Origin: Klebsiella phage vB_KpM_FBKp24 | Sequence record: MW394391.1 | Length of the DNA stretch: 64,000 bases | Reading direction: 5' to 3' (one strand) | Shown: piece after piece, positions 5,612 through 56,011 of the stretch | Layout of the letters: each line of letters begins with the position of its first letter | How positions within the stretch are numbered: position 1 is the first letter of the stretch | Made by a program: the position numbers and the translations under genes | Notes under the pieces: generated by a model | What the model saw: the letters and a program-made list of their open reading frames with translations, nothing else | Database searches by the model: none | What the model was told of the DNA's origin: nothing

Positions 5612-5639
5612 TCGATTTTTCCTCGGTTGTACTGCCTTC

Positions 5640-5668
5640 AGTAAGGTGATATATACACGAAAACAAAT
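5640..5668 (-). promoter_or_regulatory. motif-1 promoter-like element (GTGTATATATCACCTTACTGA)
   Basis: consensus match immediately downstream of a terminator hairpin. Confidence 0.55.
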
Positions 5669-11908: not shown

Positions 11909-11945
11909 CAAAAAAAGAAAGGACCGAAGCCCTTTCTTTTTATTT
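11909..11945 (-). terminator. intrinsic terminator (aaagaaagg...cctttcttt) followed by T7 on - strand
   Basis: 9-bp stem plus U-tract immediately after the 633-aa gene. Confidence 0.65.
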
Positions 11946-11964
11946 ATATCACCGTACTACTTGA

Positions 11965-13866
11965 TTAACGGCCGAAACCGTAAGAAGCGCGAGAACGCGA
12001 ACGGAAACCACCGCCGTCGTAACCGTTAGACTCGTAGCGGGAAGTGTAACCACGACGAGACGTACGGTTGTCCTGAGAGATACCATCGGCGGTTACGACC
12101 ATACCAGCTTCGGACAGTGCGCGGGTCAGACCAAACAGCCAGTTGGCGTTCAGTTCAATCACGTCAGCACGGTCAGTGATCTGGTATTGACCACCGGTGT
12201 AGTCTTCGATGATTTTCTCGATCTGGTCCATACGGACAGCCAGATCAATGCCATCATCGTTCAGGCAGCGGTCGAAGTCGGCGACAACCTGCGGGGATTT
12301 CAGGCCGAAGTTGGTCAGGATTTCGTAGTAGCCGATTTCACGCAGGTCGCGTTTATGACCCTGTTCGTCAACCCAGGTACCGAGCATCTGCGGCATTTCG
12401 CGGATGATACCGACGTCGTACAGATCGTTGGTGTTCATGATCGCAGAGAAGCGCTTACCGGACACGTTATCTGCCGCATCGATCAGAAGATCGACCGCGT
12501 CTTTACGGTTCGGGTTGCTCATGTCGCAGGCATCCAGCAGCAGGTTCAGCATCGGCGTTACGATAGAGGTGCGCGGCACCTGAATCTGAACGATTTGGCT
12601 GTTTTCGCGGATGACGTTAGACACCAGATCGGCCCACTGGCTGTCGCTCAGAACTTCCGGTAATTTATCGAACTCGCCTTTCAGTTCGTAGGTCAGCGCA
12701 TCCGCAGTACGGAGCGCGCCTTTACCGGCGATCGGACGAAGACCCTGAATCAGTACCGGCTCAGTCATCAGTGCAGAGACCTGCGCCAGAGAGAACATCA
12801 GGTATTCCGGGATCGGGTGACATTTCAGCTCGCTGATAACCAGAGCGGCGCCATAGATACGGGTATCTTGGTCTTCCGGTTTTTTGCTACGGGAAGTGAA
12901 GAAGCTGTTGCTCGGCTCTTCTTCGCCTTTGTAGTACAGATCGACATGGCTAACAATGCCCGCCAGCTGAGTGGACTCACGCTCGGAAAGAACGTTAACC
13001 ATACCGCCACGACGTTCGTCACGCGGAGCGACCATCAGATCAACGACGATATCTGCGCGGTGCGGCAGGTCAGTGATGTCGTCAGCGATGTCGCCCTGGT
13101 GGAACGCGATGTTCGCCAGCAGATCGTTGTTTTTCAGGTCCAGTGCTGCAATGCTGAATTCGTTCGTGTTCAGCAGGCCGTTAACCGTATAGATGATCTG
13201 GTTGAATACCGCGCTGGCGATAGTTTCCAGTTCACTGTCGGTCGGTTTATCGTTCAGGATCGGAGAAGCAGCCAGATGCTGTACCGGACCTTTGAACGCC
13301 GGGTTGGACGCTTCGATCAGTGCGTCGAGAGAGTCTTTGTAACCCTCAGCTTCGTACTGGTCGTTTGCCGTAGTGGTGTAACGCACGGTCAGATCGCGGC
13401 TAACGGTTACGGCCTGTTTCGGCATGACGGTATTACCAACGAAGATTACGGTAGAAGCGAACACTTCACCGGTATCTTTCATGCGCGCTGCAATAACGGC
13501 CGCGTCCAGTTTCATCTGGGTTTCTTTGCCGATGGCCGGGGTTACGGTCCATTCTACCGCGCCGTTCAGGCTCAGGGCGGCGGCGTGTTGTTTCTGAATT
13601 TCTTTCGCCAGTTCGACGAATTTTGCTACGTCGCCTGCCGCAGAATTGAGAGACAGTACCGGCGCGTCTTTACGGAAGTTATAAGTAGAATTCACTTTTC
13701 TCTCCTGAGTGTTGGAAGAATCTTGGTTGGTGGTAGAACGGTTATAAGTACGGCGACGCTGATTCTGATCGCTACCGGCAGATTCGTTACCTGCGGTGTT
13801 ACGCGCTTCAGCTGCTTCAACAACGGTGTCTTTTTCTTGGTTGTGATCGTCATCACGTAAAGCCAT
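11965..13866 (-). CDS. chmA: highly expressed early protein (633 aa); candidate phage-nucleus shell protein (chimallin), alternatively a capsid protein
   Basis: size ~69 kDa; disordered N-terminal ~65 aa and RG/Y-rich C-terminal tail; strong GC3 codon bias; motif-1 promoter and strong terminator; PhuZ present in the same window. Homology was not verifiable here. Confidence 0.45.
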   Translation of the reverse strand: MALRDDDHNQEKDTVVEAAEARNTAGNESAGSDQNQRRRTYNRSTTNQDSSNTQERKVNSTYNFRKDAPVLSLNSAAGDVAKFVELAKEIQKQHAAALSLNGAVEWTVTPAIGKETQMKLDAAVIAARMKDTGEVFASTVIFVGNTVMPKQAVTVSRDLTVRYTTTANDQYEAEGYKDSLDALIEASNPAFKGPVQHLAASPILNDKPTDSELETIASAVFNQIIYTVNGLLNTNEFSIAALDLKNNDLLANIAFHQGDIADDITDLPHRADIVVDLMVAPRDERRGGMVNVLSERESTQLAGIVSHVDLYYKGEEEPSNSFFTSRSKKPEDQDTRIYGAALVISELKCHPIPEYLMFSLAQVSALMTEPVLIQGLRPIAGKGALRTADALTYELKGEFDKLPEVLSDSQWADLVSNVIRENSQIVQIQVPRTSIVTPMLNLLLDACDMSNPNRKDAVDLLIDAADNVSGKRFSAIMNTNDLYDVGIIREMPQMLGTWVDEQGHKRDLREIGYYEILTNFGLKSPQVVADFDRCLNDDGIDLAVRMDQIEKIIEDYTGGQYQITDRADVIELNANWLFGLTRALSEAGMVVTADGISQDNRTSRRGYTSRYESNGYDGGGFRSRSRASYGFGR

Positions 13867-13927: not shown

Positions 13928-13952
13928 TTCTTCATTATAGTGATATAGACGT
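13928..13952 (-). promoter_or_regulatory. motif-1 promoter-like element (CGTCTATATCACTATAATGA)
   Basis: consensus match 65 nt upstream of the 633-aa gene in an AT-rich divergent region. Confidence 0.5.
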
Positions 13953-17516: not shown

Positions 17517-17939
17517 TTAACTCGTGGTGATTGTGAAGTTATTGAAACCTGCTGCGCTGATGGCCAACCGAATCTTCTCAATGTCACCAGTGCCAATACC
17601 AGGAATAAGCACAGTAGCATTGACGGTGTCCACAACAACGATAGTATCGACTTTGATCCACGGAAGACCAATAACGCGCTCGGTACCGTCTTCAAGTTTC
17701 AGTACTAACCAGTTGTAAGAGCGAGCATTGTCTTCTACTGTTCCTGATGGAAGAAGCGGGTAAACTTTAGCGTGTTCCGCTTCTGGATCAATGCCGAATT
17801 TAGTTGCGCCCCGTGCCGAAACGATGTCGGTAGGAACGGCGTTTCTGAAGACGTCGCCGTATAATGCTGAAGGGTATACCTGGAATGTAACGGTCGCGTT
17901 TAACGTGAATTTACCGAGTATCAAATCAGTCGTCGCCAT
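17517..17939 (-). CDS. small hypothetical protein (tandem array member 1)
   Basis: ATG at 17939 with AAGGAA SD; the track's longer start is TTG. Confidence 0.55.
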   Translation of the reverse strand: MATTDLILGKFTLNATVTFQVYPSALYGDVFRNAVPTDIVSARGATKFGIDPEAEHAKVYPLLPSGTVEDNARSYNWLVLKLEDGTERVIGLPWIKVDTIVVVDTVNATVLIPGIGTGDIEKIRLAISAAGFNNFTITTS

Positions 17940-18300
17940 GTGCATTTCCTTTTGTGTCAAAAGTCAGAAGAAGGGACAGAGAATCGTAAAACTCAATGTC
18001 TACATAACGAAGGTTGGTTCGCTCCGTTAATTCGGTACATAACTCGGCCAGCGCAATCCCTGTCTGGTAGAGAGCACCGGTAATACTAACATATTCAATG
18101 TTTGGCTTACCGGTACGTAACACTGTGTCGAGTATTTCTAAGACCGACTTACGTGCTTCCTCTTTGACGAATTCAACATCTACCACCTCATCGTCGTCAT
18201 TCTCCCCCTGCGTCTCTTCCAATAGTTCCTGGTAAAAGTAACTATAGATAATAGGTAGACGTATAGGGGAGGAGAGAACTTTTATTTTCATGTTCTTCAA
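17926..18300 (-). CDS. small hypothetical acidic protein (array member 2, 124 aa)
   Basis: ORF in head-to-tail array. Confidence 0.5.
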   Translation of the reverse strand: MKNMKIKVLSSPIRLPIIYSYFYQELLEETQGENDDDEVVDVEFVKEEARKSVLEILDTVLRTGKPNIEYVSITGALYQTGIALAELCTELTERTNLRYVDIEFYDSLSLLLTFDTKGNAHGDD

Positions 18301-18670
18301 TCCTTAAAGCAAGAGAATGACTTCCGGTGTAAAGGAACAAATTCTCCAGCGTGTATGAATCAGTCAATAGGAAAGGGAGGGTCTTCTCAAACTCTCTTAA
18401 TAGACGCCGGTGTAGGCAATCGTAGTTTTCGAGTATCAATTCCACCGCATAATCAATAGACGCGCTATCGCTGGAAACGATTCGATTCCGCAATATGTCA
18501 GGATGCATCACCATCTCTAATGGCTGTAAGATATCTTCAACAAACAACGATGAAAACTCCCTCGGCGTAACCCAAGCACTTTTCGGAAAGTTATCGAGTA
18601 TAGCTCCCATCCCCGAGTAAAAGGTTCTGCAAGGCAAGACGGCCAGAACAGAGGGAGGTTTTGTTACCAT
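18242..18670 (-). CDS. small hypothetical protein (array member 3, 142 aa)
   Basis: ATG verified; ATGGTAA start/stop overlap with the upstream gene; GGAGAG SD. Confidence 0.55.
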   Translation of the reverse strand: MVTKPPSVLAVLPCRTFYSGMGAILDNFPKSAWVTPREFSSLFVEDILQPLEMVMHPDILRNRIVSSDSASIDYAVELILENYDCLHRRLLREFEKTLPFLLTDSYTLENLFLYTGSHSLALRIEEHENKSSLLPYTSTYYL

Positions 18671-19128
18671 GTCTCTCTCTCCAAATCATTCAGGACAAAA
18701 GAAACTGTGTCATTACGTAACAGAACGTCATCGATCATTGTGTTGTCGTTATAACGCAGCTCACGTGACTTAAATGTATTGAGTAGGTCGTAAGCAATCA
18801 CTTCGGCCATATCTTCAATATAACATGTGAGCTTGTACCGATCTGACGCCGAAAGGAGATGAATTTCGTTGTCCGTATCGTCTCTGTTGACAAAGTAAAG
18901 ATCAAGGAAGTCATCTAAACGCTCCGCGGCTTCTTGGTGCGACAAAAAACGTGCGTCCAAGACAAAAGTAATGACCGCCAACATAAAGTCCACTACCTCA
19001 AAACTGATCGTCTTGTCTGATTTCCCTCGTATGAGAGGGGAGATGTAGCGGTCGTAGTAAAGGAAAAGGTTTCGTGCAGGCCAATCTTTCACATTGAAGA
19101 TAACAATCGTGCGATGATATTTGCCCAT
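18664..19128 (-). CDS. small hypothetical protein (array member 4, 154 aa)
   Basis: ORF in array. Confidence 0.55.
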   Translation of the reverse strand: MGKYHRTIVIFNVKDWPARNLFLYYDRYISPLIRGKSDKTISFEVVDFMLAVITFVLDARFLSHQEAAERLDDFLDLYFVNRDDTDNEIHLLSASDRYKLTCYIEDMAEVIAYDLLNTFKSRELRYNDNTMIDDVLLRNDTVSFVLNDLERETW

Positions 19129-19136
19129 GGTTGTGT

Positions 19137-19589
19137 TTACCCTAAAAATGTTGTAACGCGAAAAAATATCCCGAACGATTTAACTTCGAAATAATCTATT
19201 CTCGGTGACGCTTCAAAGTGGTCCCGAATTTCATGTCGATAATACTGATAGAATAACAAAGAAAGTTCTTCAGCGCTTTCAATCAGTTCATCTGTAGTGA
19301 GATCTGATAACTTCGCATTCGGGTAACCCCGAATAAAATCCTTTATCTCACGCTCCCAGAAAGGTGTAAACTCGGAGATTACCACCGTGCGTTTATAATC
19401 AATGATCAAATCAAAGATCAGTTGAATAATTAAACGCCGATATAAAATATCGCAGTATGATAGTTCGTGTAAAACCGCCGCTACCTTCGTCCGATAAGGG
19501 AGAACAAAGGTTCGTAATTGGGTCTGACGGAATTCGTCGCCGTTAATGAACGACTGTGACATACAACGTCCTCCCAATGAGCTTAACAT
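19137..19589 (-). CDS. small hypothetical protein (array member 5, 150 aa)
   Basis: ORF in array. Confidence 0.55.
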   Translation of the reverse strand: MLSSLGGRCMSQSFINGDEFRQTQLRTFVLPYRTKVAAVLHELSYCDILYRRLIIQLIFDLIIDYKRTVVISEFTPFWEREIKDFIRGYPNAKLSDLTTDELIESAEELSLLFYQYYRHEIRDHFEASPRIDYFEVKSFGIFFRVTTFLG

Positions 19590-19956
19590 TCTTGAGTTGA
19601 TTCGGATGTTCGATCAAAGAACTTAATTCACGCGTTTTAAACGAAAGTCGCGATGCCAATAACTGAATGTCAATATAGAACATAGCTCCCAGATCGTCCT
19701 TAAACGAAGGGTCTAAGTACTCCATTCCATCCGAGGAAAAGATAAGATCCAATATCTTTTCTGTTTCTTCGCCCGCCTTGAAAAAGAATGGCATTGAATA
19801 CCCACCCCGCAAGCGAGAAAGAGAATATAAAAACACCGGGAGAATAATCTCCCGGCGGTCAGTAGAATAGCGTTTTTCTATCTTATTCAGATCAGGTGTG
19901 TTCCAATTAAGATCGTAAACAAATGTCTTTGAACAAGCTGATGGATCGTTGATCAC
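19543..19956 (-). CDS. small hypothetical protein (array member 6, 137 aa; start uncertain)
   Basis: ORF in array. Confidence 0.5.
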   Translation of the reverse strand: MINDPSACSKTFVYDLNWNTPDLNKIEKRYSTDRREIILPVFLYSLSRLRGGYSMPFFFKAGEETEKILDLIFSSDGMEYLDPSFKDDLGAMFYIDIQLLASRLSFKTRELSSLIEHPNQLKNVKLIGRTLYVTVVH

Positions 19957-20320
19957 TACTGACCTCCCATTGATAGTAATCGATTAGTCGGTCAGTGAGT
20001 CTTACTTGTAAAAAATCACTGACCGTTGACTGAACCGACGAGAGAAACGCGTCGGTATCCGAGACGCTTAATTCCGGGGAAGAAAAGTATTGTAACATTC
20101 TCCCTTCCGAACTGGAATAACCAAAGATGGTTTTTTCTAATACGTGTAAAAGCAGCATCGGGAAAGCTTCCCCGAATGTCATGGGTTCGAAGCCTTCTTC
20201 AAAAAAGCGATAGTAAACGTTCCTTAGCTTCCCGCGGAGTTGTTCGATGTCAATAATAACTCGCACGAGCCTCACGTTTCTCTCGCTGAATTCGTTCCCA
20301 GTCCCGGATTCGCCAATCAC
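19907..20320 (-). CDS. small hypothetical protein (array member 7; track start is GTG, true start possibly ATG at 20182)
   Basis: ORF in array. Confidence 0.45.
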   Translation of the reverse strand: MIGESGTGNEFSERNVRLVRVIIDIEQLRGKLRNVYYRFFEEGFEPMTFGEAFPMLLLHVLEKTIFGYSSSEGRMLQYFSSPELSVSDTDAFLSSVQSTVSDFLQVRLTDRLIDYYQWEVSSDQRSISLFKDICLRS

Positions 20321-20753
20321 CCATATTCTCCAAAATTAAACAGTTGCTCCTGACTTCCAGTACACGAATCTCTTCCCAGTGCTTATCCTTACGAATCTCA
20401 CAGTCTTTAAAATACTCCAGACAGAAGATAATAAAAACATCAATGACTTCACGGTAAAGTTCTTGAGAAGGTTCGTCGCAGATTTCTTCGTTATTCTTAC
20501 CGAACCCTATCGGTTCCAGTGTATAACCCTTAAACCATGTTCTGATTGCACCATCATCGTCCCAACATTCCCATGGGAAGAGAGCTTCTCGGTTGATGGC
20601 GTTCCAGAAGATACGTAAAGCACTTTCTTTTAGATCTTCTACTGTGACTCGTTCATTGGCATGGACGTCAATTATACGATAATGCTCGCGCGCATAACGT
20701 AAGATTGATGAGAGTCGTCTCGCAAGGTAATCAATGTCAATAACATAACGCAT
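20250..20753 (-). CDS. small hypothetical protein (array member 8, 167 aa, W/R/E-rich)
   Basis: ORF in array. Confidence 0.55.
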   Translation of the reverse strand: MRYVIDIDYLARRLSSILRYAREHYRIIDVHANERVTVEDLKESALRIFWNAINREALFPWECWDDDGAIRTWFKGYTLEPIGFGKNNEEICDEPSQELYREVIDVFIIFCLEYFKDCEIRKDKHWEEIRVLEVRSNCLILENMGDWRIRDWERIQREKREARASYY

Positions 20754-20764
20754 AACGGTCGCCT

Positions 20765-21169
20765 TTATTGATAAACAATGTATTTACGAGAGTCAATCAT
20801 TTCCGTAAAGAACTCGCCCGGATAAATATAGTTTTGCCACTGTTCACGCAATTTGCGTAAAATAGATTCCATCGTACCATTTTTAGTCATGAGCGTAATT
20901 TCTTCCTGTAAAGCCATGTAGAACGTAAGCTGGTCCCTGTAGTACGGGTCATCGGGAATGGTTTCGAAATCGTTTTCTAACGGGTCGATATAATTTTGGT
21001 AATAAACTTCAATAAAGAGGGTTCGATAGTCAATCTTACCTCCCTCCTCCCAATGGTAAGCTGTTGTTAAAAACGTCTCAATAATCTGGTTTCGCCAGAT
21101 GCCCTGATACCCGTCCGAGAAGAGTTTGAGTGAGTAAGGTATCTCGAAGACGTATTTTTTAGTGTGCAT
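20765..21169 (-). CDS. small hypothetical protein (array member 9, 134 aa)
   Basis: ATG verified with AGAGGAA SD. Confidence 0.6.
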   Translation of the reverse strand: MHTKKYVFEIPYSLKLFSDGYQGIWRNQIIETFLTTAYHWEEGGKIDYRTLFIEVYYQNYIDPLENDFETIPDDPYYRDQLTFYMALQEEITLMTKNGTMESILRKLREQWQNYIYPGEFFTEMIDSRKYIVYQ

Positions 21170-21483
21170 AGATCGGGATTCCTCTGATAAAACTCGTCAT
21201 CGTCGACCCAGATAAACAAGGCCCGATTCCTTAGGTCCAATGATAGGACGTTTAAAATATTAACAGGGAGTTTAAGAGGAATCCCACCATATTCTTTCTC
21301 GAGCATTCTTGCTACCTGCCATACTTTGTCGGTTTCAAGCGTATTGTTCTCTAAGATGTAGTGTTCCGGTAGAACGACCCCGTATACTCGATCCAACCAG
21401 AAAGACAAAACTTGTTTCCGGTAATAATCGGGCATCGTAGGGGTCATCTCCAGAAAGCGATTAATGTCTACGATTATCAACAA
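21067..21483 (-). CDS. small hypothetical protein (array member 10); 3' end overlaps the next gene by 103 nt
   Basis: ORF in array. Confidence 0.45.
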   Translation of the reverse strand: MLIIVDINRFLEMTPTMPDYYRKQVLSFWLDRVYGVVLPEHYILENNTLETDKVWQVARMLEKEYGGIPLKLPVNILNVLSLDLRNRALFIWVDDDEFYQRNPDLCTLKNTSSRYLTHSNSSRTGIRASGETRLLRRF

Positions 21484-21873
21484 TTACCTTTCCTCCAGAA
21501 TAATTTCGAATTCGTCTTGATTGATTCTAAAATCCCGCACTTGATAGTATCCTGGAATTTGGCCCATAGACTCAAATAACGCACTGAGCTCTTCCTCCTT
21601 ATCGTTGACTCGGTTGAAGACGTCATGAATCATTGTTTCAAAATCGAGCGTTTTATCTACACTGATTCTGTTCGTCGGACATACACGGTCAGTCAAGAAA
21701 TAGATAGCTCTGGCCCAATGCTCACGGTTCCGGTAATGGAACCATGTCATCCATGTCGCATAGAAGATTTCCGCCTGAGTGAAGAGAAATGGGTAGGGGG
21801 CGGTTATCCAGAAAAAAACTTTTGGTATTGTCCCTTTAATTTTGATTGTCGATTCTGGAGTCCTGTAATTCAT
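21484..21873 (-). CDS. small hypothetical protein (array member 11, 129 aa, W/Y/F-rich)
   Basis: motif-1 promoter 94 nt upstream. Confidence 0.55.
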   Translation of the reverse strand: MNYRTPESTIKIKGTIPKVFFWITAPYPFLFTQAEIFYATWMTWFHYRNREHWARAIYFLTDRVCPTNRISVDKTLDFETMIHDVFNRVNDKEEELSALFESMGQIPGYYQVRDFRINQDEFEIILEER

Positions 21874-21964
21874 TCTAAGCCTCTTTTTGCTTCAACTATA
21901 CATTCCCCTTCAAATAAATAGAAAAGCTCGTACAAAGCGATTATAGGAGCCTTATACGACATCT

Positions 21965-21992
21965 TATCAATAGGGTGATATATACTTTACTG
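21965..21992 (-). promoter_or_regulatory. motif-1 promoter-like element (AAGTATATATCACCCTATTGA)
   Basis: consensus match downstream of the phuZ terminators. Confidence 0.55.
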
Positions 21993-22008
21993 AAATTCGA
22001 CAAACATA

Positions 22009-22072
22009 ATCTCTCTGGACTTACGCCCAGAGAGAAAATAAAAAGACGGAGTGGGAAACCCCCACTCCGTAG
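22009..22072 (-). terminator. tandem hairpins after phuZ; the distal one (acggagtggg-aaacc-cccactccgt) is followed by TTTTTATTTT on - strand
   Basis: read directly from the sequence. Confidence 0.6.
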
Positions 22073-22119
22073 ATGACTTAAGCGAATGAAGCAGCTAAAA
22101 ATGTCGTACATAGAATGGA

Positions 22120-23088
22120 TTAGAATTCCATTCCATCGCCTTGCGTGTCACCCTGAATAAAGCTCTGCACTGCGACTGACTTTTTATCCCTTGCCATCCG
22201 GCGTTGTTCAAAGTCGTCGTAGGTTTTACGGAGGTCCGTCAGAATTTCATTCAAACCGTGAGTATGGATGAGGAAGTAAAGGGAATCTTCCCCTGACCGT
22301 TTACGTGAACCGTAGGTGTTGTAGTCAGCAGGAATAGTCCCGGTTGTGGGTTTATTGTCACCGTAAAGTTCCGCAACTGAGATGGGGGCGGTTACCTCCA
22401 ATGCGTCTTCTCGGTCCTGGAAAACTTCCAACAGTCCCAGCTCCGGTCGTACGCCTGCGCCAATCACTGGGCGTGCCCAAGTGAGGACGTCTGCTGAATC
22501 GAGACCGTGGTGTTTACCTGAATAGAGATCGAGGACTGCGCGAATGGTGGCAATCATAATCGCATCGACTTCTGCATTACGAACGTTGTTTTCGTTACTT
22601 TCAAACGCCACGTTCGCAAACTGATTGTTTTTGATCGCGATATTACGAATAGACGAAATAGTCTTCATCGTGTTTTCGGTTGTTTTCGCCGATTCGGTAG
22701 ATCCCACTAAAAAGACCAGAACGGCTTTCCCTTGGGCGTAGAGCCCCTCGATGAGTTTAGGGCCAATTACGGAGCCCGATCCACCGGACGCTGAAAAGAT
22801 CAGGATGTTCAGTTCTGAAGGTTTGAGTTTCAGAAGAATGTCGCTGATACTACGATCGGTAACGTCATAGTTAGTTTTACGGATTTTACCCGCGCCATCA
22901 ACCCCTTCCAGAAAATACCATTTATCTTGATCGACAACGGTGCGCTCAGAAACATTAGAACGGCTACCGTCAACGTAAGCCTCTCTTACGTTTGCCAGAT
23001 CCGATAGATCAGTACGCATCAGCTTGGTGAGGATGTCAATTCCCGCCCCGCCGGCACCGTAGATAGTTACTGTGTTATTCGACGACAT
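22120..23088 (-). CDS. phuZ: phage tubulin PhuZ (FtsZ/tubulin-like GTPase)
   Basis: N-terminal GAGGAG nucleotide-binding loop; T4-loop SASGGSGSVIGP (compare PhuZ SLGGGSGSVLGP); acidic C-terminal tail QGDTQGDGMEF; ATG with AAGGAG SD. Confidence 0.85.
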   Translation of the reverse strand: MSSNNTVTIYGAGGAGIDILTKLMRTDLSDLANVREAYVDGSRSNVSERTVVDQDKWYFLEGVDGAGKIRKTNYDVTDRSISDILLKLKPSELNILIFSASGGSGSVIGPKLIEGLYAQGKAVLVFLVGSTESAKTTENTMKTISSIRNIAIKNNQFANVAFESNENNVRNAEVDAIMIATIRAVLDLYSGKHHGLDSADVLTWARPVIGAGVRPELGLLEVFQDREDALEVTAPISVAELYGDNKPTTGTIPADYNTYGSRKRSGEDSLYFLIHTHGLNEILTDLRKTYDDFEQRRMARDKKSVAVQSFIQGDTQGDGMEF

Positions 23089-23173
23089 AATACAGATACT
23101 CCTTATGTTAAGCCAAAATAGCTCTTGTCATAATACCTTATACGACGTCGTAAAATAATCGAGGGAGAAGAAA

Positions 23174-24004
23174 ATGGTATTGCAAAAAGTCATTTCAGAT
23201 ATTCGCTTTAATATCCCAAAAGAAGTCTTGGAAATCGCTTTCCTCGGAGACTTGGGGTTAGAGCGGCGGAAACCGGGTGCCCTTGACTGGGAGATTCGGA
23301 ACAAAATTATCGATGCTAAAGTTCGCCCTGACTGTAATTTATTAGGGGCTTTAGAAATGAATATCCCATTAGCCAACGCGGAAGTCATCTACGACGCTAC
23401 TGGACTGTACCGTAATACCGTTCGTATACCTAAGTCACTCACTCAAGGTAGAAGTATTGTTAGTGTTTCTTATTTTAACTATTACTACTACACTGGCGCT
23501 ATCGGTCAAGTCGGCGGATACATGGCCAATAACTTTTCCAGTAATACCTGCGGCAATTCCCCGATGATGGCGCAAGCATCCCGTATATTGCAATCTGCGG
23601 CCAACTCCGATTCCACAGGGACAGCAGCTGTTCGTCTTATTGGGGAAAACACGATCGTTGTTAATGACTACATTGGGTCATTACTTCAAGGGTCGTTGGT
23701 TTGTCTTGTTAGCCATGATTCTGAAATGAACTCGATCGGTCCTAAAGCGGTTCCTCAGTTCTCCAAACTCTGCCAATTAGCTTGTAAAGCATACATCTAC
23801 AATACTTTAAAAGTTAAACTCAACGGAGCTTACTTAGCCGGCGGCGCCGAACTGGGGGAAATACAAAACTTTGTTGATAGTTACTCGGATGCTGCGGAGC
23901 AATACGAGGAGTATTTCCGTGAAGAGTGGTCGGCGGTTCAGTTTGCAAATGACGACACACGTAATTCCTGGTACTTACGTAACCTGATCGGCGGCGGCGC
24001 ATAA
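23174..24004 (+). CDS. hypothetical protein (276 aa)
   Basis: ATG with GAGGGAGAAG SD. Confidence 0.65.
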   Translation: MVLQKVISDIRFNIPKEVLEIAFLGDLGLERRKPGALDWEIRNKIIDAKVRPDCNLLGALEMNIPLANAEVIYDATGLYRNTVRIPKSLTQGRSIVSVSYFNYYYYTGAIGQVGGYMANNFSSNTCGNSPMMAQASRILQSAANSDSTGTAAVRLIGENTIVVNDYIGSLLQGSLVCLVSHDSEMNSIGPKAVPQFSKLCQLACKAYIYNTLKVKLNGAYLAGGAELGEIQNFVDSYSDAAEQYEEYFREEWSAVQFANDDTRNSWYLRNLIGGGA

Positions 24005-24048: not shown

Positions 24049-24882
24049 TCAGTGGCACCTTATAACTACGCAGTCCGCATCAAGATCTATTACCGCTGTG
24101 GCATCATTCTCTTTGTCAGTGATCGATAGTCGATACGTTTCCACTGCATTGATATCCTGCATCAAACGATTGGTGTAACTGGTTTCTTCTATTTCCGTCA
24201 CACCCACTACAAAACTGTAACCGCTCACTGCCCCATAGCACATGGCCAAGATTGAGCCTACTACATAATTCCACTCGTCCAGCTTCCAATCGCCGTGGCT
24301 GTAAACGGAAAAGAGGATGCGCGTATTCGTTTCATTCTCGATCAGTAAGAAAGCATCTTTACCAATGAAATGAGGGCTTTCCAGACTGACTACTTGTACG
24401 TATAAGAGCGAGACCCCGGTTAAAGAATCCCTGACTTCAAATCCGTCCTCTATATTCCAGAAGACAAAATAGTCTTTATTGTTCTTCGCCATCATTTCGT
24501 AGTAAGTGATCACTCCATCCTCGTCGAAATAAGGACGAACGTACACCTCTTCGTTACGTAATGGGAAAACCGACCCCTCAGTAATCTCCTTGACTTGGAA
24601 AACGCTTACGATAATCGCGCTTTCGGGTAGGACGCCCATATCTGTTAATAGTACGGAAATTTCCAATAGGGACAGAGATTCGGTATCTATCCCATCAACG
24701 TCTTCAAGGTGTAAAGTCCATACTGAGCTGGTGCTGTCAGGAAAACTCAACGTGATTAAAATGGTATTTGCCCGGAGCGAATCTTTAGTGGGTTGTCCGT
24801 TGATACGGACAACCGCCCCTTTCTTTTCTTTTTCTTCATCGACTGCATCAGTACTTATCTCGGTTTCGCTCATCGCCTGCAT
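24049..24882 (-). CDS. hypothetical protein (277 aa)
   Basis: long ORF. Confidence 0.6.
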   Translation of the reverse strand: MQAMSETEISTDAVDEEKEKKGAVVRINGQPTKDSLRANTILITLSFPDSTSSVWTLHLEDVDGIDTESLSLLEISVLLTDMGVLPESAIIVSVFQVKEITEGSVFPLRNEEVYVRPYFDEDGVITYYEMMAKNNKDYFVFWNIEDGFEVRDSLTGVSLLYVQVVSLESPHFIGKDAFLLIENETNTRILFSVYSHGDWKLDEWNYVVGSILAMCYGAVSGYSFVVGVTEIEETSYTNRLMQDINAVETYRLSITDKENDATAVIDLDADCVVIRCH

Positions 24883-24910
24883 AACTACCCCTCAGAGAAA
24901 GAAACGTAAA

Positions 24911-25369
24911 TCAATTCACGACCGTTTGTAACACCGCGCTATCACGCACGCTTTCGAAATAAGTTAATAATGCGCTACTGTCTGGGTTAGCGATTTGAAA
25001 GTTATTCAGGGTATCCTGGAAACCTGCTGAGAAATTACCTAGCTCATCAATAACCAGAAGCTCATTCAACATCCACCAATAACGCCCTTTAATTCGGACG
25101 ATAGCGGGTTGTCCCCAAATTAAACCTTTCATTTCAAAATTATAATGAAGTAAAAGGTTTTCCTCTACTTGATTTAAGAGGGTTCGAATAGGCCCAGCTT
25201 CTTTATTCTTCCTGAGAATACGGTAAACCACTAACTTACCGTCAATAAATAAAACCACGCAGTGACGAATATTTTTAGCCGTCAAAGAAAGTGTCAATAA
25301 AACATCCGTGTCGTTGGTTAACGAAAGATCAAGAAGTTGGCCATCGGTAAAACGAACAATAGTTGTCAT
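24911..25369 (-). CDS. hypothetical protein (152 aa)
   Basis: ORF. Confidence 0.55.
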   Translation of the reverse strand: MTTIVRFTDGQLLDLSLTNDTDVLLTLSLTAKNIRHCVVLFIDGKLVVYRILRKNKEAGPIRTLLNQVEENLLLHYNFEMKGLIWGQPAIVRIKGRYWWMLNELLVIDELGNFSAGFQDTLNNFQIANPDSSALLTYFESVRDSAVLQTVVN

Positions 25370-25397
25370 CTACGCCTCCGGTGGCCGAAAATTGTAA

Positions 25398-26030
25398 TTA
25401 GATTAGGTTCCAGCGTTTTTCCATCAATTCGCTAATACGGTTTTTAATCTCGTTACTTTTAATCCAAGGCGGATTAATGAGGTCAGAGATAACGATCCCA
25501 ATTTTAGGAAGGTTTTTCAGTAGGGTGGTAATTTGCCCCGGTCGTAACCCTTCTACTGGAGTATTGATGTCCAGCTTACAATAATAGCCGAAGTCATTTA
25601 ACTCCTTGTCGAAATACCAGTCCAGTTCCCCGACAAAACCATTCCCTAAATCCACCGCGTAACGTCTTTTCTGATAAAGGCGTTCTCCAAAAGGTAACGC
25701 CATTTCATATTCTTCCTGAGTGATAACCTTTTCCAATTCGATACAACGAGAAGTTAGGGTATTAGGATCATACGGCAGTCGGTATTTTGTCGCCGCCTCG
25801 TAAAGTGTCACATTTGCTGAATTTTCTAAATCGCCGTTAAAAGTTTCAGTACGACGAACACGTACCGTCAGACGTGTGTTATTTTGCGTCATCGCATTCG
25901 TTTCAGATTGCGTGATTTGTAAATAATTTGTCTTGACATCCTTTAATCGGAGATAGGAAGCATCATCGAGTTTAAAGAAGATGGCTACCTCGTTTTCGTT
26001 ACTTTTCTTCTTCCCCATCATGATTCTCAT
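25398..26030 (-). CDS. hypothetical protein (210 aa)
   Basis: ORF. Confidence 0.55.
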   Translation of the reverse strand: MRIMMGKKKSNENEVAIFFKLDDASYLRLKDVKTNYLQITQSETNAMTQNNTRLTVRVRRTETFNGDLENSANVTLYEAATKYRLPYDPNTLTSRCIELEKVITQEEYEMALPFGERLYQKRRYAVDLGNGFVGELDWYFDKELNDFGYYCKLDINTPVEGLRPGQITTLLKNLPKIGIVISDLINPPWIKSNEIKNRISELMEKRWNLI

Positions 26031-26526
26031 TGATCAAATAAGCTTCGTACTCAACGTTCAATTTTGTCAGTAGACGCGGAACAATAGCTTCAATTAATAA
26101 GGTCACTGACAAAGGATCAAAAAGCGGATCTTTTGTCAGCAGTGCATAAATAACGTCAGCGAAGGAACTCTTCTCAATTCTGCTGCGAATATTCGCCCCA
26201 TCACTCAAACGGGTATTTGAAATGTCTATCCCGGTTATACGTAATCTTCCGTTCTCAGAGATAGATAGGGACAAAAAAGAAAGACGCTCCAGTAACCAAG
26301 GCAGGTACGCGCTGCGTACCTGCCTATCGACAATCTTCATTTCCTCCACTTCAAAAATCAAAGGGAAATCAAATTGCTCCGCTTTGACTGGGCAATAACC
26401 CCTCGCCTCCTTCTTCACAAATACATCAGAAAGGGTTTGATTGCGATTGCCCAGAAAGCCGCTAAAACGCAGCGGCTTTTTCAGAATTTCCATGGTAGGG
26501 AGGACTACGAGACTCTGCGTTTTCAT
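25999..26526 (-). CDS. hypothetical protein (175 aa)
   Basis: ORF. Confidence 0.55.
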   Translation of the reverse strand: MKTQSLVVLPTMEILKKPLRFSGFLGNRNQTLSDVFVKKEARGYCPVKAEQFDFPLIFEVEEMKIVDRQVRSAYLPWLLERLSFLSLSISENGRLRITGIDISNTRLSDGANIRSRIEKSSFADVIYALLTKDPLFDPLSVTLLIEAIVPRLLTKLNVEYEAYLINENHDGEEEK

Positions 26527-26586
26527 GACAGTTCCTTTTTAACGTATTCAGACAAAAAGTTCATTATCAATAGACGCAGGATTAAT

Positions 26587-27141
26587 TTAAGAATACATCG
26601 CGATCAGTTTTTCTACAGGGGTAGACTCGAGCAGGTATTTCGCAATAGGCGCCGCCTTAAGTTGCAGCTCCAGTCTTGTGGGTAACGTAATCTTTTTCCT
26701 GATTTGACAACAATCAGTATCGAATGACGCATAAAGGACAATCTTTCCGAGCTCGATACGAAGCCCCGCATTAATCGGTTTGATCGGAAGGTTACTTACG
26801 TGAGGGAGCGTATTCCATTGATCAACAAACCCTCGGACATTTAAGGTATATCCATTATCCGACGTTAAACGCTCAATGTCATGTCCCGTTATCGCAAGAT
26901 AAAGATCGGCGATGTCTACACCTAATTGCGTCATGCAAAAACGCCGACCAGGCTCTTTCATCGCGTATCGCAATACCAGTGTACAGTAATGCTCTTTGAT
27001 GATATTAAATACATCAGTTTTCGCTTCACGCGTTTTAAACGACGTGACTAATGACCCATAATGACGCAACTCATGAATCACTACGCCCTGAGTGACGTAA
27101 CTCTTCGCACGTAATTTCCCGATATCAACGTTATAGTACAT
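26587..27141 (-). CDS. hypothetical protein (184 aa)
   Basis: ORF. Confidence 0.55.
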   Translation of the reverse strand: MYYNVDIGKLRAKSYVTQGVVIHELRHYGSLVTSFKTREAKTDVFNIIKEHYCTLVLRYAMKEPGRRFCMTQLGVDIADLYLAITGHDIERLTSDNGYTLNVRGFVDQWNTLPHVSNLPIKPINAGLRIELGKIVLYASFDTDCCQIRKKITLPTRLELQLKAAPIAKYLLESTPVEKLIAMYS

Positions 27142-27159
27142 GTGGGTTCCTTTTATCGT

Positions 27160-27633
27160 TTAAGCAAAAGCAAAACAAGGAGTGCCGTTAAGGGTGAATG
27201 TATTCTCAACGACAGTCCGAATGATTTTTTCATCCAGATCAGCGCGACACGTCGGTGACGTGATTCGACGTTTATTTAAGCCGTGAATTACCAGTCCCGG
27301 GTCGAGGTCGAATGAAAGATAATCGATCTTTTCTTTTTCATCCTCTAACCACCGGTATTCGTAGTCATATTTTCTCTCGTCGTACTTAACAGGGTGCCGA
27401 GAGGTAATTCTGAATGTCCTCCCAGTGAAGCCATCCTGAAAGGCGTTGTAGAGCTTAAAGATTTCCGTTCTGGCTGTTTCAAGACTGGTCGACTTGTAGT
27501 TGTTGGGGTTAAGGTCAGCTAATAGACGACCGTCTGCTGCGATGATGATGTGACCTTTGTGGATAGTGATTATTTTACCGTCGTCGGTCCGTTGCTGCAG
27601 ACCGCCACATCCTGTTAATTCAAATGTAATCAC
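27160..27633 (-). CDS. hypothetical protein (157 aa)
   Basis: ORF. Confidence 0.55.
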   Translation of the reverse strand: MITFELTGCGGLQQRTDDGKIITIHKGHIIIAADGRLLADLNPNNYKSTSLETARTEIFKLYNAFQDGFTGRTFRITSRHPVKYDERKYDYEYRWLEDEKEKIDYLSFDLDPGLVIHGLNKRRITSPTCRADLDEKIIRTVVENTFTLNGTPCFAFA

Positions 27634-28138
27634 TTAATAACCCTCTAATAAGCTTGAATGGTTCTGGTTGATATCCAACTCCCTCGATTACGTCTGAGGG
27701 ACTGAGGAGGTAAAATTTATTTACTTCGTCTTCTTGCCAGAGAATATGGTCACGATAATCTAATAAACCATCCGGATAGAGTACGTCGTAATACTTCTCC
27801 CCAACCTTCAGTAAAGAGTGGGCAAAGTTCAATTCAGTCGGCAGGTTACTGTCGTAATAAACCTCTTGGAAATAAAATAAACATACCTCAGGGGAATCGG
27901 TACAAAGCTCGACTCCTAGATCAGTAACAGCCAGACAACACCCAGAATAAACTTCACCACAACCTTGATCGACCGAGGCATAGATCCAGATCGCGAAGTC
28001 GTCATCCGTGCGAAACGAAAGTTCTTCAGCACGCCTTCTCATCCAATCGGCAGTGAACTCATCGACATCTAAACTGTTTACCAAGAAAAAGTCTTTGTAG
28101 ACTTTTCGCACTAAGTGTAAATACTCTGATACGGTCAT
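27620..28138 (-). CDS. hypothetical protein (172 aa)
   Basis: ORF. Confidence 0.55.
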   Translation of the reverse strand: MTVSEYLHLVRKVYKDFFLVNSLDVDEFTADWMRRRAEELSFRTDDDFAIWIYASVDQGCGEVYSGCCLAVTDLGVELCTDSPEVCLFYFQEVYYDSNLPTELNFAHSLLKVGEKYYDVLYPDGLLDYRDHILWQEDEVNKFYLLSPSDVIEGVGYQPEPFKLIRGLLSDYI

Positions 28139-28139
28139 G

Positions 28140-28481
28140 TTATTCTATTCTGTCAGTATAATTACCATACCACCATCCGTCAGGGGCAAGAGTGGGTATC
28201 ACTCGACTTCCGCCTTCTGTTGGAATCCAGTCCAGATTGAAGACCAGCTTAGAGGGCCAAGACGCTTCGTTAGCCCGTACCTTTCTTCCGACCGGTTCTT
28301 CTAATGGGTAAAAACGAAATCGAAACATCTCTTTATTTTCTAGTTTTTCAATCACCACCTTTGCATCTGCCCAGCGCTTTCCTTTTCGAATCGCCCGTGA
28401 AAAGGTCGCCGTAATTACTTTACCCTTGCGACGAAATTTCACACAGGGTGTGGTTTTAATTATGCTAATAGGTAATGCCAT
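28140..28481 (-). CDS. hypothetical basic protein (113 aa)
   Basis: ORF. Confidence 0.5.
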   Translation of the reverse strand: MALPISIIKTTPCVKFRRKGKVITATFSRAIRKGKRWADAKVVIEKLENKEMFRFRFYPLEEPVGRKVRANEASWPSKLVFNLDWIPTEGGSRVIPTLAPDGWWYGNYTDRIE

Positions 28482-30621: not shown

Positions 30622-30648
30622 ATTCATTAGGGTGATATAGTTCTCTAA
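30622..30648 (-). promoter_or_regulatory. motif-1 promoter-like element (AACTATATCACCCTAATGA)
   Basis: consensus match just downstream of a terminator. Confidence 0.55.
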
Positions 30649-32208: not shown

Positions 32209-32269
32209 GATTAATCCTAATTAATTGAAAACGGAAACAAAGCGAGTACGACCTTTACCCGCCCCGTAT

Positions 32270-32593
32270 TTAATTGGATTCGAAGGATGTCTCCGAAAGT
32301 GCAATAATTTCTTCCAATCCATCAAGGATCACTCCGGCCGCAATAAGGGTTAGCTCTTCCCCAGATGGTGTTAGGTCACGAACAGAACCCCGCGCTGTTG
32401 ATACAGAAATTAGCATCCTTCTCACTTTGGTATTCATTATAAACACTTCGGTTAACGGTAGGTTGTAGAACACCTCTGCGCGCTGAGACAACTGGTAAGC
32501 AATTTCATTCTGGGAAATTTCCGTGTTCTTTACAGTGTCAAACCATGCCAGAATATCTTTAGCTGTTTCTACGGTTGTTTTTAAGTCAGCCAT
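32270..32593 (-). CDS. hypothetical protein (107 aa)
   Basis: ORF; begins at the duplicated divergent promoter module. Confidence 0.55.
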   Translation of the reverse strand: MADLKTTVETAKDILAWFDTVKNTEISQNEIAYQLSQRAEVFYNLPLTEVFIMNTKVRRMLISVSTARGSVRDLTPSGEELTLIAAGVILDGLEEIIALSETSFESN

Positions 32594-35131: not shown

Positions 35132-35158
35132 TGTTCAATAGGGTGATATATACACCAC
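35132..35158 (-). promoter_or_regulatory. motif-1 promoter-like element (GTGTATATATCACCCTATTGA)
   Basis: consensus match. Confidence 0.55.
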
Positions 35159-55459: not shown

Positions 55460-55960
55460 TTAGTTACAGGTCAGAACGAGCTTCCCTTGGATATGGGTCA
55501 CGCCAAATGGCATCTGCTGAGCGTCCAGGTTGATCTTCGGAGCCAGCGCCAGCGTTTTGGTGTTACCTGCGATATTCTGCGCTTGTGCAGCATCAGTCCA
55601 CGCGTATTCCACATTGTTAACGAACACGGAAGTTTGATCGCGGTTGCTCACCGTCATCAGGTTATCGGCAAAGTCGAAGCGACCAGTGTTCTGGGTCAGT
55701 TTCGCTTCAGTGAGGCGCCAGTTTTTCTGGGCCGTGTTGCTGGTCAGCACGAAGTTGATCGCCTTACTGTTATTAGTACCGGTTTCGCCTTTCAACAGGA
55801 TACCGCCGACTTGAACACCGTTCGCGTAATCGATACCGCAGGAGATTTGAGTTTGGTTGTATTCTGCGTCCCAGACCAGTTCATTGGCAGCAAAAGCCGA
55901 AGAGGTCAGTGCCAGAGCGATTACGGAAACAGCGATTTTGATAGATTTCATTTGATACAA
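55460..55960 (-). CDS. secreted protein (166 aa) with signal peptide (AFA-AN cleavage site) and two Cys; GC3-rich
   Basis: MKSIKIAVSVIALALTSSAFA. Confidence 0.55.
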   Translation of the reverse strand: MYQMKSIKIAVSVIALALTSSAFAANELVWDAEYNQTQISCGIDYANGVQVGGILLKGETGTNNSKAINFVLTSNTAQKNWRLTEAKLTQNTGRFDFADNLMTVSNRDQTSVFVNNVEYAWTDAAQAQNIAGNTKTLALAPKINLDAQQMPFGVTHIQGKLVLTCN

Positions 55961-56011
55961 TTCCTATTTGAATAAAGAAAGGTTTTAGTTAAAAACGACG
56001 AGAATTTACTA

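What the first reader, a model, noticed from the sequence alone, without database searches (positions are those of the whole stretch)
22120..23088. PhuZ phage tubulin
The protein carries a GAGGAG loop, the T4-loop-like SASGGSGSVIGP, and an acidic C-terminal tail (GDTQGDGMEF) of the kind needed for PhuZ filament assembly. This marks a spindle-forming, nucleus-positioning jumbo phage. Tandem terminator hairpins follow the gene.
Basis: partly seen in the sequence, partly recalled or inferred. Interest (0 to 1): 0.55.

Follow-up and report, generated by a model that had tools for sequence, protein, structure and literature searches.

The report
Known PhuZ tubulin, Klebsiella jumbo phage
This gene is a correctly identified phage tubulin (PhuZ) from a nucleus-forming Klebsiella jumbo phage, but an identical protein is already annotated as PhuZ in a published genome, so it is an ordinary, known feature.

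Summary
Window 22120..23088 (minus strand) encodes a 322-aa protein carrying the quoted GAGGAG, SASGGSGSVIGP and GDTQGDGMEF motifs. Two terminator-like hairpins follow the stop codon.

- The protein matches the PHROG family "tubulin PhuZ" over its full length (E 9e-81).
- Its only sequence relatives in the PDB are the PhuZ proteins of Goslar, phiKZ and 201phi2-1.
- A confident AlphaFold model (pLDDT 90) matches those same structures first (TM 0.80-0.84), well ahead of CetZ, TubZ and FtsZ.
- The catalytic aspartates of PhuZ201 (D187/D190) are present as D197/D200 and are invariant in 52 homologs.
- The gene is under strong purifying selection (pN/pS 0.12).
- A chimallin (nuclear shell) gene and phage multisubunit RNA polymerase genes lie in the same window, in the same order as in 201phi2-1.

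The feature is not new. The window is about 97-99% identical to Klebsiella phage vB_KpM_Centimanus (OZ240615.1), whose 100% identical protein is already annotated "tubulin PhuZ".

Two caveats apply. Filament architecture and cell behaviour (spindle, vortex or five-stranded tube) cannot be read from sequence. Only the first hairpin is conserved in the nearest genus (Siatvirus), where it carries a compensatory pair change; the second is lineage-specific.

The parts
22120..23088 (-). PhuZ (phage tubulin) coding sequence, 322 aa plus stop codon
   Evidence: ORF. PHROG 4733 'tubulin PhuZ' at E 8.8e-81 over residues 3-317. 100% identical to CAM8750770.1 'tubulin PhuZ' of phage Centimanus. AF2 model and Foldseek top hits are all PhuZ.
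23041..23058 (-). T1 nucleotide-binding loop, GAGGAG (residues 11-16)
   Evidence: G13, G14 and G16 are invariant in 52 homologs. The loop aligns to AGGTG of PhuZ201.
22759..22794 (-). T4 tubulin signature loop, SASGGSGSVIGP (residues 99-110)
   Evidence: G102, G103 and G105 are invariant. S99, S101, S104, S106, V107, G109 and P110 are at least 90% conserved. The loop aligns to SLGGGSGSVLGP of PhuZ201.
22489..22503 (-). T7 loop / start of H8, LDSAD (residues 196-200), with catalytic D197 and D200
   Evidence: These align to PhuZ201 D187 and D190, which the literature calls the catalytic aspartates (bioRxiv 10.1101/311498). Both are invariant in 52/52 homologs.
22123..22152 (-). C-terminal tail GDTQGDGMEF (residues 313-322), the equivalent of the PhuZ 'acidic knuckle'
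   Evidence: D318-G319-M320 aligns to D311-G312-M313 of PhuZ201, and G319 is conserved in 48/52 homologs. The model shows the long helix H11 (residues 279-311) followed by a low-confidence tail (pLDDT 50-55). That fits a tail which orders only in the polymer (PMC3678025).
23099..23104 (-). Shine-Dalgarno AAGGAG, 10 nt upstream of the ATG
   Evidence: Read directly. The AACATAAGGAG block is conserved in KpLz-2_45.
23089..23173 (.). 85-bp divergent intergenic region that must hold the PhuZ promoter and that of the opposite-strand gene 23174..24004
   Evidence: Gene layout. The conserved blocks TCGATTATTTTACG and TATAAGGTATTATGA are shared with KpLz-2_45. Promoter function is inferred, not shown.
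22036..22070 (-). Hairpin 1 plus T-tract: intrinsic-terminator-like site about 50 nt after the stop codon (ACGGAGTGGGGGTTTCCCACTCCGT CTTTTTATTT)
   Evidence: 11-bp stem with 7 GC pairs. Present in the MFE and centroid folds. Conserved in KpLz-2_45 with a compensatory T-A to C-G pair change and a retained T-tract.
22010..22035 (-). Hairpin 2 (TCTCTCTGGGCGTAAGTCCAGAGAGA), with a weaker T-rich tail
   Evidence: 11-bp stem. Identical in Centimanus but absent from KpLz-2_45, where it falls in a gap. It is lineage-specific, and its function is less certain.
11965..13866 (-). Context: chimallin / nuclear shell protein gene (633 aa)
   Evidence: Annotated 'nuclear shell protein' in Centimanus. PHROG 4795 at 4.3e-44. 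Sequence hits to solved chimallin/PhuN chains at 3e-06 to 5e-06.

Best explanation
The ORF encodes the PhuZ ortholog of a roughly 300-kb chimallin-encoding (nucleus-forming) Klebsiella jumbo phage. The phage is of the Centimanus type, related to the Siatvirus genus.

Shown here:
- It has the PhuZ variant of the tubulin/FtsZ fold.
- It has intact T1 and T4 GTP-binding loops, the two T7/H8 catalytic aspartates, and a long C-terminal helix ending in a conserved ...DGM-x-x tail.
- It evolves under strong purifying selection.
- It sits as a single-gene unit between an 85-bp divergent promoter region and a conserved hairpin/T-tract terminator.
- The genome neighbourhood is syntenic with that of 201phi2-1.

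Inferred by homology to 201phi2-1, phiKZ, phiPA3, Goslar and RAY PhuZ:
- GTP-bound monomers polymerise head to tail.
- The C-terminal tail of one subunit docks on the neighbouring subunit and drives multistranded filament assembly.
- D197/D200 from one subunit complete the GTPase site of the next, giving dynamic instability and/or treadmilling.
- The filaments push on and rotate the chimallin-enclosed phage nucleus and carry capsids to it, raising phage yield without being strictly essential.
For: Family and fold:
- PHROG 'tubulin PhuZ' at 8.8e-81 over the full length.
- PDB sequence hits are PhuZ proteins only (5.5e-25 to 5.6e-16).
- A profile of 52 homologs hits PhuZ at 2e-75 to 4e-59, against TubZ at 2e-13 and FtsZ at 2e-3.
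- The AF2 model has pLDDT 90. Foldseek's top five hits are all PhuZ, TM 0.80-0.84.

Functional residues:
- G13/G14/G16, G102/G103/G105 and D197/D200 are invariant.
- D197/D200 correspond to the catalytic D187/D190 of PhuZ201.
- The terminal DGM motif and the R217 equivalent (R226) are kept.

Selection:
- pN/pS is 0.115 against the KpLz-2_45 ortholog.
- All three differences from Centimanus are synonymous.

Context:
- Chimallin, RNAP beta subunits, DNA polymerase and SbcD lie in the same order as 201phi2-1 gp59...gp130.
- The gene is a single copy in the genome.
- The terminator is conserved with a compensatory change.
- Mechanism comes from the literature: PMC3678025, bioRxiv 10.1101/311498, PMC10299810, PMC13282480.
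Against: - No experiment exists for this phage or its genus. The Centimanus paper does not mention PhuZ, a nucleus or jumbo status.
- Identity to any characterised PhuZ is only about 23-28%.
- Both Pfam matches fall below the curated gathering scores: TubZ_C_2 at 25.7 against 27 bits, Tubulin at 22.7 against 33 bits. There is no NCBIfam hit.
- The PhuZ201 lateral-contact residues D303, D305 and R238 align to Q308, F310 and P247. The three-stranded architecture therefore cannot be assumed.
- PhuZ behaviour differs between phages, and PhuZ is dispensable in some chimalliviruses (PMC13282480).
Confidence: 0.9

Rival explanations
1. It is a TubZ-type (type III partition) tubulin that segregates a plasmid or prophage genome together with a TubR-like adaptor and a centromere, rather than a nucleus-positioning PhuZ.
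For: TubZ of Clostridium phage c-st is the next-best family by profile (2.2e-13) and by fold (TM 0.65-0.66). The phiKZ protein was itself first called 'TubZ' (PMC3678025).
Against: - PhuZ matches are about 45-60 orders of magnitude stronger, and TM is 0.80-0.84 against 0.65.
- Neither flanking gene resembles an adaptor. One matches only phrog_3179 (unknown function), and the others tested have no PHROG hit.
- The host genome is a chimallin-encoding phage described as obligately lytic and lacking integrase (PMC13436347).
- The gene order is syntenic with the PhuZ locus of 201phi2-1.
Confidence: 0.02
2. It is a decaying or functionally inert relic. PhuZ is non-essential and has been lost from many chimalliviruses, so this copy may no longer polymerise or hydrolyse GTP.
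For: - PhuZ is non-essential, and many chimallin-encoding phages lack it (PMC13282480).
- The tail is less acidic than in PhuZ201, and the D303/D305 equivalents are lost.
- Pfam scores are below threshold.
Against: - pN/pS is 0.115 with synonymous sites near saturation.
- Every nucleotide-binding glycine and both catalytic aspartates are intact and invariant.
- The reading frame is full length, with a conserved RBS and terminator.
- The acidity of the tail equals the family median.
Confidence: 0.04
3. It is a genuine PhuZ homolog that assembles a filament architecture or cellular array different from the three-stranded bipolar spindle. Examples would be Goslar-like vortex or RAY-like five-stranded tubes, so that it rotates or spaces the nucleus without centring it.
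For: - The closest solved relative by sequence and fold is Goslar PhuZ (5.5e-25; TM 0.84). Goslar PhuZ forms a vortex and does not centre the nucleus (PMC10299810; PMC13282480).
- The host is an enterobacterium, as for Goslar and RAY.
- The PhuZ201 lateral-interface residues D303/D305/R238 are not conserved.
Against: - Identity to Goslar PhuZ is only 28%, so architecture cannot be transferred from any one relative.
- The R217 equivalent (R226) and the DGM knuckle core are retained.
- There are no direct data.
Confidence: 0.35

Closest known systems
PhuZ of Klebsiella phage vB_KpM_Centimanus (CAM8750770.1, OZ240615.1), and orthologs in Siatvirus phages such as KpLz-2_45 (YP_010297836.1)
   Same: 100% amino-acid identity to the Centimanus protein, which is already annotated 'tubulin PhuZ', with the same coordinates relative to neighbours. 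86% identity to the Siatvirus orthologs, with the same flanking genes, RBS and first terminator hairpin.
   Different: The window is not the Centimanus record itself. It is about 97-99% identical at nucleotide level, with several indels elsewhere in the window and three synonymous changes in this gene. Siatvirus orthologs lack hairpin 2.
PhuZ of Pseudomonas phage 201phi2-1 (gp59; PDB 3r4v, 3rb8, 3j5v), the founding member
   Same: Same fold (TM 0.81-0.82). T1 and T4 loops, catalytic D187/D190 equivalents, the R217 equivalent, helix H11 and the terminal DGM motif are shared. The genomic neighbourhood is syntenic, including DNA polymerase, chimallin and RNAP subunits.
   Different: Only 28% identity over 286 residues. 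The tail has 3 acidic residues instead of 6. D303, D305 and R238, which make lateral contacts in the three-stranded filament, are replaced by Q308, F310 and P247.
PhuZ of E. coli phage Goslar (PDB 9pm9/9pmk)
   Same: Best PDB match by sequence (5.5e-25), by profile (2e-75) and by fold (E 1e-26, TM 0.84, rmsd 2.4 A over 301 columns). Both phages infect enterobacteria.
   Different: 28% identity. [quoted passage not shown] Whether this protein does the same is unknown.
TubZ of phiKZ (gp39; PDB 3zbp/3zbq)
   Same: Fold TM 0.80-0.82, sequence E 5.9e-21. The concept of a C-terminal helix plus an acidic knuckle that orders on the neighbouring subunit in the protofilament also applies (PMC3678025).
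   Different: 23% identity in the structural alignment. The phage genus and host differ.
TubZ (plasmid / Clostridium phage c-st), CetZ and FtsZ
   Same: Same tubulin/FtsZ superfamily fold and GTPase motifs.
   Different: Much weaker matches: profile E 2e-13, 1e-06 and 2e-03, with TM 0.57-0.68. The biology also differs (DNA partition, archaeal cell shape, cell division). The 'CetZ' label on the LPKP23 ortholog is therefore a mis-annotation.

Membership tests
PhuZ (phage tubulin of chimallin-encoding jumbo phages) | Tubulin/FtsZ two-domain fold that is closest to solved PhuZ structures | tested here: met
   The AF2 model has pLDDT 90 and pTM 0.88. Foldseek's top five PDB hits are all PhuZ, with TM 0.80-0.84 and E 1e-26 to 2.5e-23. 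The next families reach TM of at most 0.68.
PhuZ (phage tubulin of chimallin-encoding jumbo phages) | Full-length match to a PhuZ sequence profile | tested here: met
   PHROG 4733 'tubulin PhuZ' at 8.8e-81, residues 3-317 against profile positions 2-318 of 323. A profile of homologs hits PhuZ PDB chains at 2e-75 to 4e-59.
PhuZ (phage tubulin of chimallin-encoding jumbo phages) | Passes the curated Pfam thresholds for Tubulin (PF00091) and the phage tubulin C-terminal domain (PF22334) | tested here: not met
   TubZ_C_2 scores 25.7 bits against a cut-off of 27, and Tubulin scores 22.7 bits against 33. This is a sensitivity issue of the general models. Most homologs carry these domains in precomputed annotation. 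There is no NCBIfam model hit.
PhuZ (phage tubulin of chimallin-encoding jumbo phages) | GTP-binding T1 loop (GGxG) and T4 tubulin signature (GGSGS) | tested here: met
   GAGGAG at residues 11-16 and SASGGSGSVIGP at residues 99-110, with invariant glycines across 52 homologs.
PhuZ (phage tubulin of chimallin-encoding jumbo phages) | Catalytic acidic residues in T7/H8 (PhuZ201 D187 and D190) | tested here: met
   D197 and D200 align to D187 and D190 and are invariant in 52/52 homologs. Their role is taken from bioRxiv 10.1101/311498.
PhuZ (phage tubulin of chimallin-encoding jumbo phages) | Extended C-terminal helix H11 followed by an acidic 'knuckle' tail required for polymerisation | tested here: inconclusive
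   The model predicts H11 at residues 279-311 followed by a flexible tail. The DGM core is conserved, and there are 3 acidic and 0 basic residues in the last 15, equal to the family median. The PhuZ201 residues D303/D305 are not conserved, and docking of the tail on a neighbouring subunit could not be modelled with these tools.
PhuZ (phage tubulin of chimallin-encoding jumbo phages) | Encoded by a jumbo phage that also encodes chimallin and multisubunit RNAPs, in the conserved gene block | tested here: met
   Chimallin lies at 11965..13866 (PHROG 4.3e-44; PDB chimallin 3e-06 to 5e-06). RNAP beta subunits, DNA polymerase and SbcD are present. The order matches 201phi2-1 gp59-gp130. The genome is about 300 kb.
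PhuZ (phage tubulin of chimallin-encoding jumbo phages) | GTP-dependent assembly into dynamic filaments that position or rotate the phage nucleus | not testable with these tools
   This needs biochemistry and live-cell imaging. No published experiment was found for this phage.
TubZ (type III DNA partition system) | Best profile and fold match to TubZ, with an adjacent TubR-like adaptor gene and centromere | tested here: not met
   TubZ hits are far weaker than PhuZ hits (2e-13 against 2e-75; TM 0.65 against 0.84). The flanking genes match only an unknown-function PHROG or nothing. A centromere was not specifically searched for.

The most novel reading that the evidence does not exclude
PhuZ in the Centimanus/Siatvirus clade is at most 28% identical to any studied PhuZ. 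It lacks the PhuZ201 D303/D305-R238 lateral contacts. It might therefore build a filament architecture or cellular array different from the known three-stranded spindle, Goslar vortex or RAY five-stranded tube. That would add a further variant of the phage cytoskeleton in a clinically relevant Klebsiella phage used in a therapy cocktail.
Probability: 0.15. Interest if true: 0.35.

Novelty: already known. Interest (0 to 1): 0.08.

Why it matters
The finding adds little. The gene family, its mechanism and this exact protein's annotation are already public.

Its practical value is classificatory. PhuZ together with chimallin marks the window as part of a nucleus-forming (Chimalliviridae-type) jumbo phage of Klebsiella. 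Such phages shield their DNA from DNA-targeting defences (PMC13282480). That is relevant because the near-identical phage Centimanus is a component of a therapeutic cocktail whose publication does not mention this biology (PMC13436347). No PhuZ from this clade has been studied experimentally, so a GFP-PhuZ or cryo-ET study would be a modest but real extension of known PhuZ diversity.

Tried and rejected
- Pfam and NCBIfam gave no above-threshold family. This reflects the insensitivity of general models to this divergent clade, not evidence against tubulin identity.
- Rfam scan of 21400-23600 at E up to 1 found no known RNA family in the 246-nt intergenic region downstream or in the promoter region. 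No tRNAs occur in the window.
- I tested whether the run of small ORFs between the DNA polymerase and PhuZ (17517-21873), and those upstream (24049-28481), form a paralog family. No BLASTP pair reached E 1e-2.
- I tested whether the 11-mer GTCGTATAAGG, shared by the PhuZ upstream region and the downstream intergenic region, is a recurrent motif. There are only 2 exact and 2 one-mismatch sites, and 2 of 100 shuffles do as well. It was not pursued.
- The second conserved intergenic block, TAATCGCTTTGTACG, is not enriched.
- A BMC Genomics 2025 survey of chimallin/PhuZ phages (PMC12625630) has no mention of Klebsiella, Siatvirus or KpLz.
- A dimer or filament model to test tail docking could not be made.
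- Jukes-Cantor dS could not be computed because synonymous sites are saturated (pS 0.77), so pN/pS is reported instead.

Full report
**Observation.** The window holds an ATG-initiated ORF of 322 aa at exactly 22120..23088 on the minus strand. An AAGGAG ribosome-binding site lies at 23099-23104.
- GAGGAG at residues 11-16
- SASGGSGSVIGP at residues 99-110
- GDTQGDGMEF at residues 313-322

In an alignment of the protein with 51 homologs spanning 25-86% identity, G13, G14, G16, G102, G103, G105, D197 and D200 are invariant. Most of the remaining T4-loop residues, plus G319, are at least 90% conserved. The motifs are therefore family signatures, not chance strings.

**Terminator hairpins.** Downstream of the stop codon, the consensus scan finds two 11-bp hairpins on the coding strand. 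One lies at 22070..22046, followed by CTTTTTATTT. The other lies at 22035..22010, followed by TTATGTTTGT. The 141-nt stretch folds at -45.3 kcal/mol, with z = -5.86 and none of 200 shuffles folding as well.

**Identity by sequence.**
- The protein matches PHROG 4733 "tubulin PhuZ" over its full length at E 8.8e-81.
- Against all PDB sequences, the only hits are phage PhuZ/TubZ proteins: Goslar 9pm9 at 5.5e-25, phiKZ gp39 3zbp at 5.9e-21, and PhuZ201 at about 5e-16.
- A profile built from the 52-sequence alignment raises these to 2e-75, 3e-68 and about 4e-59. Clostridial phage TubZ reaches 2e-13, CetZ 1e-06 and FtsZ 2e-03.
- Pfam's general models (TubZ_C_2, Tubulin) match but fall just below their gathering scores, and NCBIfam has no model. 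I read this as limited sensitivity, because most homologs carry both Pfam domains in precomputed annotation.

**Identity by fold.** An AlphaFold2 model built on the alignment is confident, with mean pLDDT 90 and pTM 0.88. Only the last ~20 residues are low. Foldseek against the PDB returns PhuZ structures as the top five: Goslar, phiKZ protofilament and monomer, and 201phi2-1, with TM 0.80-0.84 and rmsd 2.1-2.9 A over about 300 columns. CetZ, TubZ and FtsZ follow at TM 0.57-0.68.

**Functional residues.**
- The HMMER and BLASTP alignments to PhuZ201 place D197 and D200 of this protein on D187 and D190. Those are the T7/H8 catalytic aspartates (bioRxiv 10.1101/311498).
- The C-terminus of PhuZ201 is ...PIIDADDNVDEDGMVV. 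Here it is ...SFIQGDTQGDGMEF.
- The DGM core aligns, and G319 is conserved in 48 of 52 homologs.
- The tail has 3 acidic and no basic residues in its last 15. That equals the family median; PhuZ201, with 6, is the extreme.
- PhuZ201 R217 is retained as R226.
- D303, D305 and the nearby basic residue (R238 in the paper's numbering) make the lateral contacts of the three-stranded filament. They align to Q308, F310 and P247, and are poorly conserved across the family.
- The role of the knuckle in polymerisation comes from PMC3678025.

The GTPase and longitudinal polymerisation machinery is therefore intact. The lateral architecture cannot be inferred.

**Selection.** Against the ortholog in Klebsiella phage KpLz-2_45 (75% nt and 86% aa identity), pN is 0.089, pS is 0.77 and pN/pS is 0.115. 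All three nucleotide differences from Centimanus are synonymous. This argues against a decaying relic.

**Source and context.** The window is 97-99% identical at nucleotide level, with a few indels, to Klebsiella phage vB_KpM_Centimanus. That record is OZ240615.1, 299,730 bp. There the 100% identical protein CAM8750770.1 is already annotated "tubulin PhuZ". Ten further Klebsiella phage records of about 300 kb carry an 86% identical ortholog, including KpLz-2_45 of genus Siatvirus. Serratia Moabite-like phages follow at about 53%, and PhiEaH1, SPLA10 and PCH45 at about 38-41%. The gene is single-copy in the genome.

In the window, the minus strand reads: PhuZ, a run of small ORFs, DNA polymerase, one opposite-strand gene, nuclear shell protein (11965..13866), RNAP beta subunit, SbcD, and a further RNAP beta subunit. 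This is the same order as gp59, gp83, gp98, gp105, gp107, gp121 and gp129/130 in 201phi2-1. I confirmed the shell protein independently (PHROG 4795 at 4.3e-44; solved chimallin/PhuN chains at 3e-06 to 5e-06). I also confirmed the RNAP subunit (PHROG 2987 at 8e-145). The "nucleus-forming jumbo phage" context is therefore supported.

**Gene unit.** The upstream neighbour (23174..24004) is divergently transcribed, so the PhuZ promoter must lie in the 85-bp intergenic region. Two blocks there are conserved in KpLz-2_45. Hairpin 1 is conserved in KpLz-2_45 with one compensatory stem change (T-A to C-G) and a retained T-tract. Hairpin 2 falls in a ~26-nt gap there. Between the hairpins and the next gene lies a recurrent promoter-like motif (see below). 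PhuZ therefore looks like a monocistronic unit ended by one conserved intrinsic-type terminator. The "tandem" second hairpin is specific to the Centimanus lineage. No Rfam family matches this region.

**Mechanism (inferred).** This part rests on homology to the characterised proteins. GTP-bound subunits polymerise head to tail. The C-terminal tail docks on the neighbouring subunit and promotes multistranded assembly. D197/D200 activate hydrolysis in the adjacent subunit, producing dynamic instability or treadmilling. The filaments position and/or rotate the chimallin shell and deliver capsids, raising yield by roughly half in some phages while being non-essential (PMC13282480; PMC10299810).

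The cellular pattern is open. Known patterns are the bipolar three-stranded spindle, the Goslar-type vortex and RAY-type five-stranded tubes. The nearest solved relative is Goslar PhuZ, at only 28% identity.

**Comparison and verdict.** The feature passes every testable PhuZ membership criterion except two. The curated Pfam thresholds are narrowly missed. The detailed knuckle contacts are inconclusive. The filament behaviour itself is not testable here. It is not a TubZ partition protein, CetZ or FtsZ. The "CetZ" label on the ortholog in phage LPKP23 is a mis-annotation.

Because an identical protein is already annotated as PhuZ in a public genome, the finding is already known. The only open question is the filament architecture in this unstudied clade.

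Noticed in passing
window 21968-21982 (-), 13933-13947 (-), 5639-5653 (-), 30625-30639 (-), 60519-60533 (-), 35136-35150 (-), 11945-11959 (+): The motif TATATCAC[C/T][C/T]TA[A/T/C]TG occurs 9 times at up to 3 mismatches, against 1.3 expected; 0 of 100 shuffles reach 9. Most copies lie on the coding strand after a T-rich stretch, 25-90 nt upstream of start codons, including the chimallin gene and the gene just downstream of PhuZ. The copy at 21968 is conserved in KpLz-2_45. It is probably a phage-RNAP promoter class. PhuZ's own upstream region lacks it.
   Followed up: partly
window ~55460-55502, against Centimanus OZ240615.1 195157-196125 (L004 6558-7526): About 1 kb of Centimanus carrying a gene annotated 'endonuclease' (CENTIMANUS_00214) has no counterpart in the window. 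The BLAST segments jump from L004 6562 to 7594 with a ~43-nt overlap in the query. This looks like presence/absence of a homing-endonuclease-type insertion between two nearly identical phages.
   Followed up: partly
window ~32245-32570 and ~57781-58115: There are further indels or diverged patches relative to Centimanus: about 300 bp more in Centimanus near 32.2-32.9 kb, and an unaligned ~330 bp near 57.8-58.1 kb. Identity also dips to 95.7% over 55460-57781. The window is therefore a distinct isolate, not the deposited record. Centimanus-derived coordinates match window coordinates only up to about 29 kb.
   Followed up: no
window 21170-21483 (-): A 314-bp stretch left unannotated in Centimanus, between CENTIMANUS_00165 and _00166, is covered by a 138-aa TTG-initiated ORF (21067..21483). 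This ORF starts right after the upstream gene's stop and overlaps the next gene by about 100 nt. It may be a missed small gene.
   Followed up: no
window 17517-21873 (-) and 24049-28481 (-): PhuZ is flanked by long runs of small (113-277 aa) same-strand ORFs of unknown function. Those tested have no PHROG match, and none is detectably paralogous to another at BLASTP E up to 1e-2.
   Followed up: yes
window 23174-24004 (+): The divergently transcribed neighbour of PhuZ matches phrog_3179 (unknown function) at 4.9e-85 over its full length. By size, strand and position it may correspond to 201phi2-1 gp73 / phiKZ gp42, which the 201phi2-1 record notes as 'identified using mass spectrometry'. That correspondence was not tested.
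   Followed up: no
literature / database annotation, not a window coordinate: The paper using Centimanus in a therapeutic cocktail describes the cocktail as spanning Demerecviridae and Straboviridae and four named genera. It never mentions jumbo size, chimallin or PhuZ, although the 299.7-kb genome encodes both. The ortholog in phage LPKP23 is labelled 'tubulin-like protein CetZ', and several MN8714xx records from Klebsiella hosts are named 'Serratia phage'.
   Followed up: no
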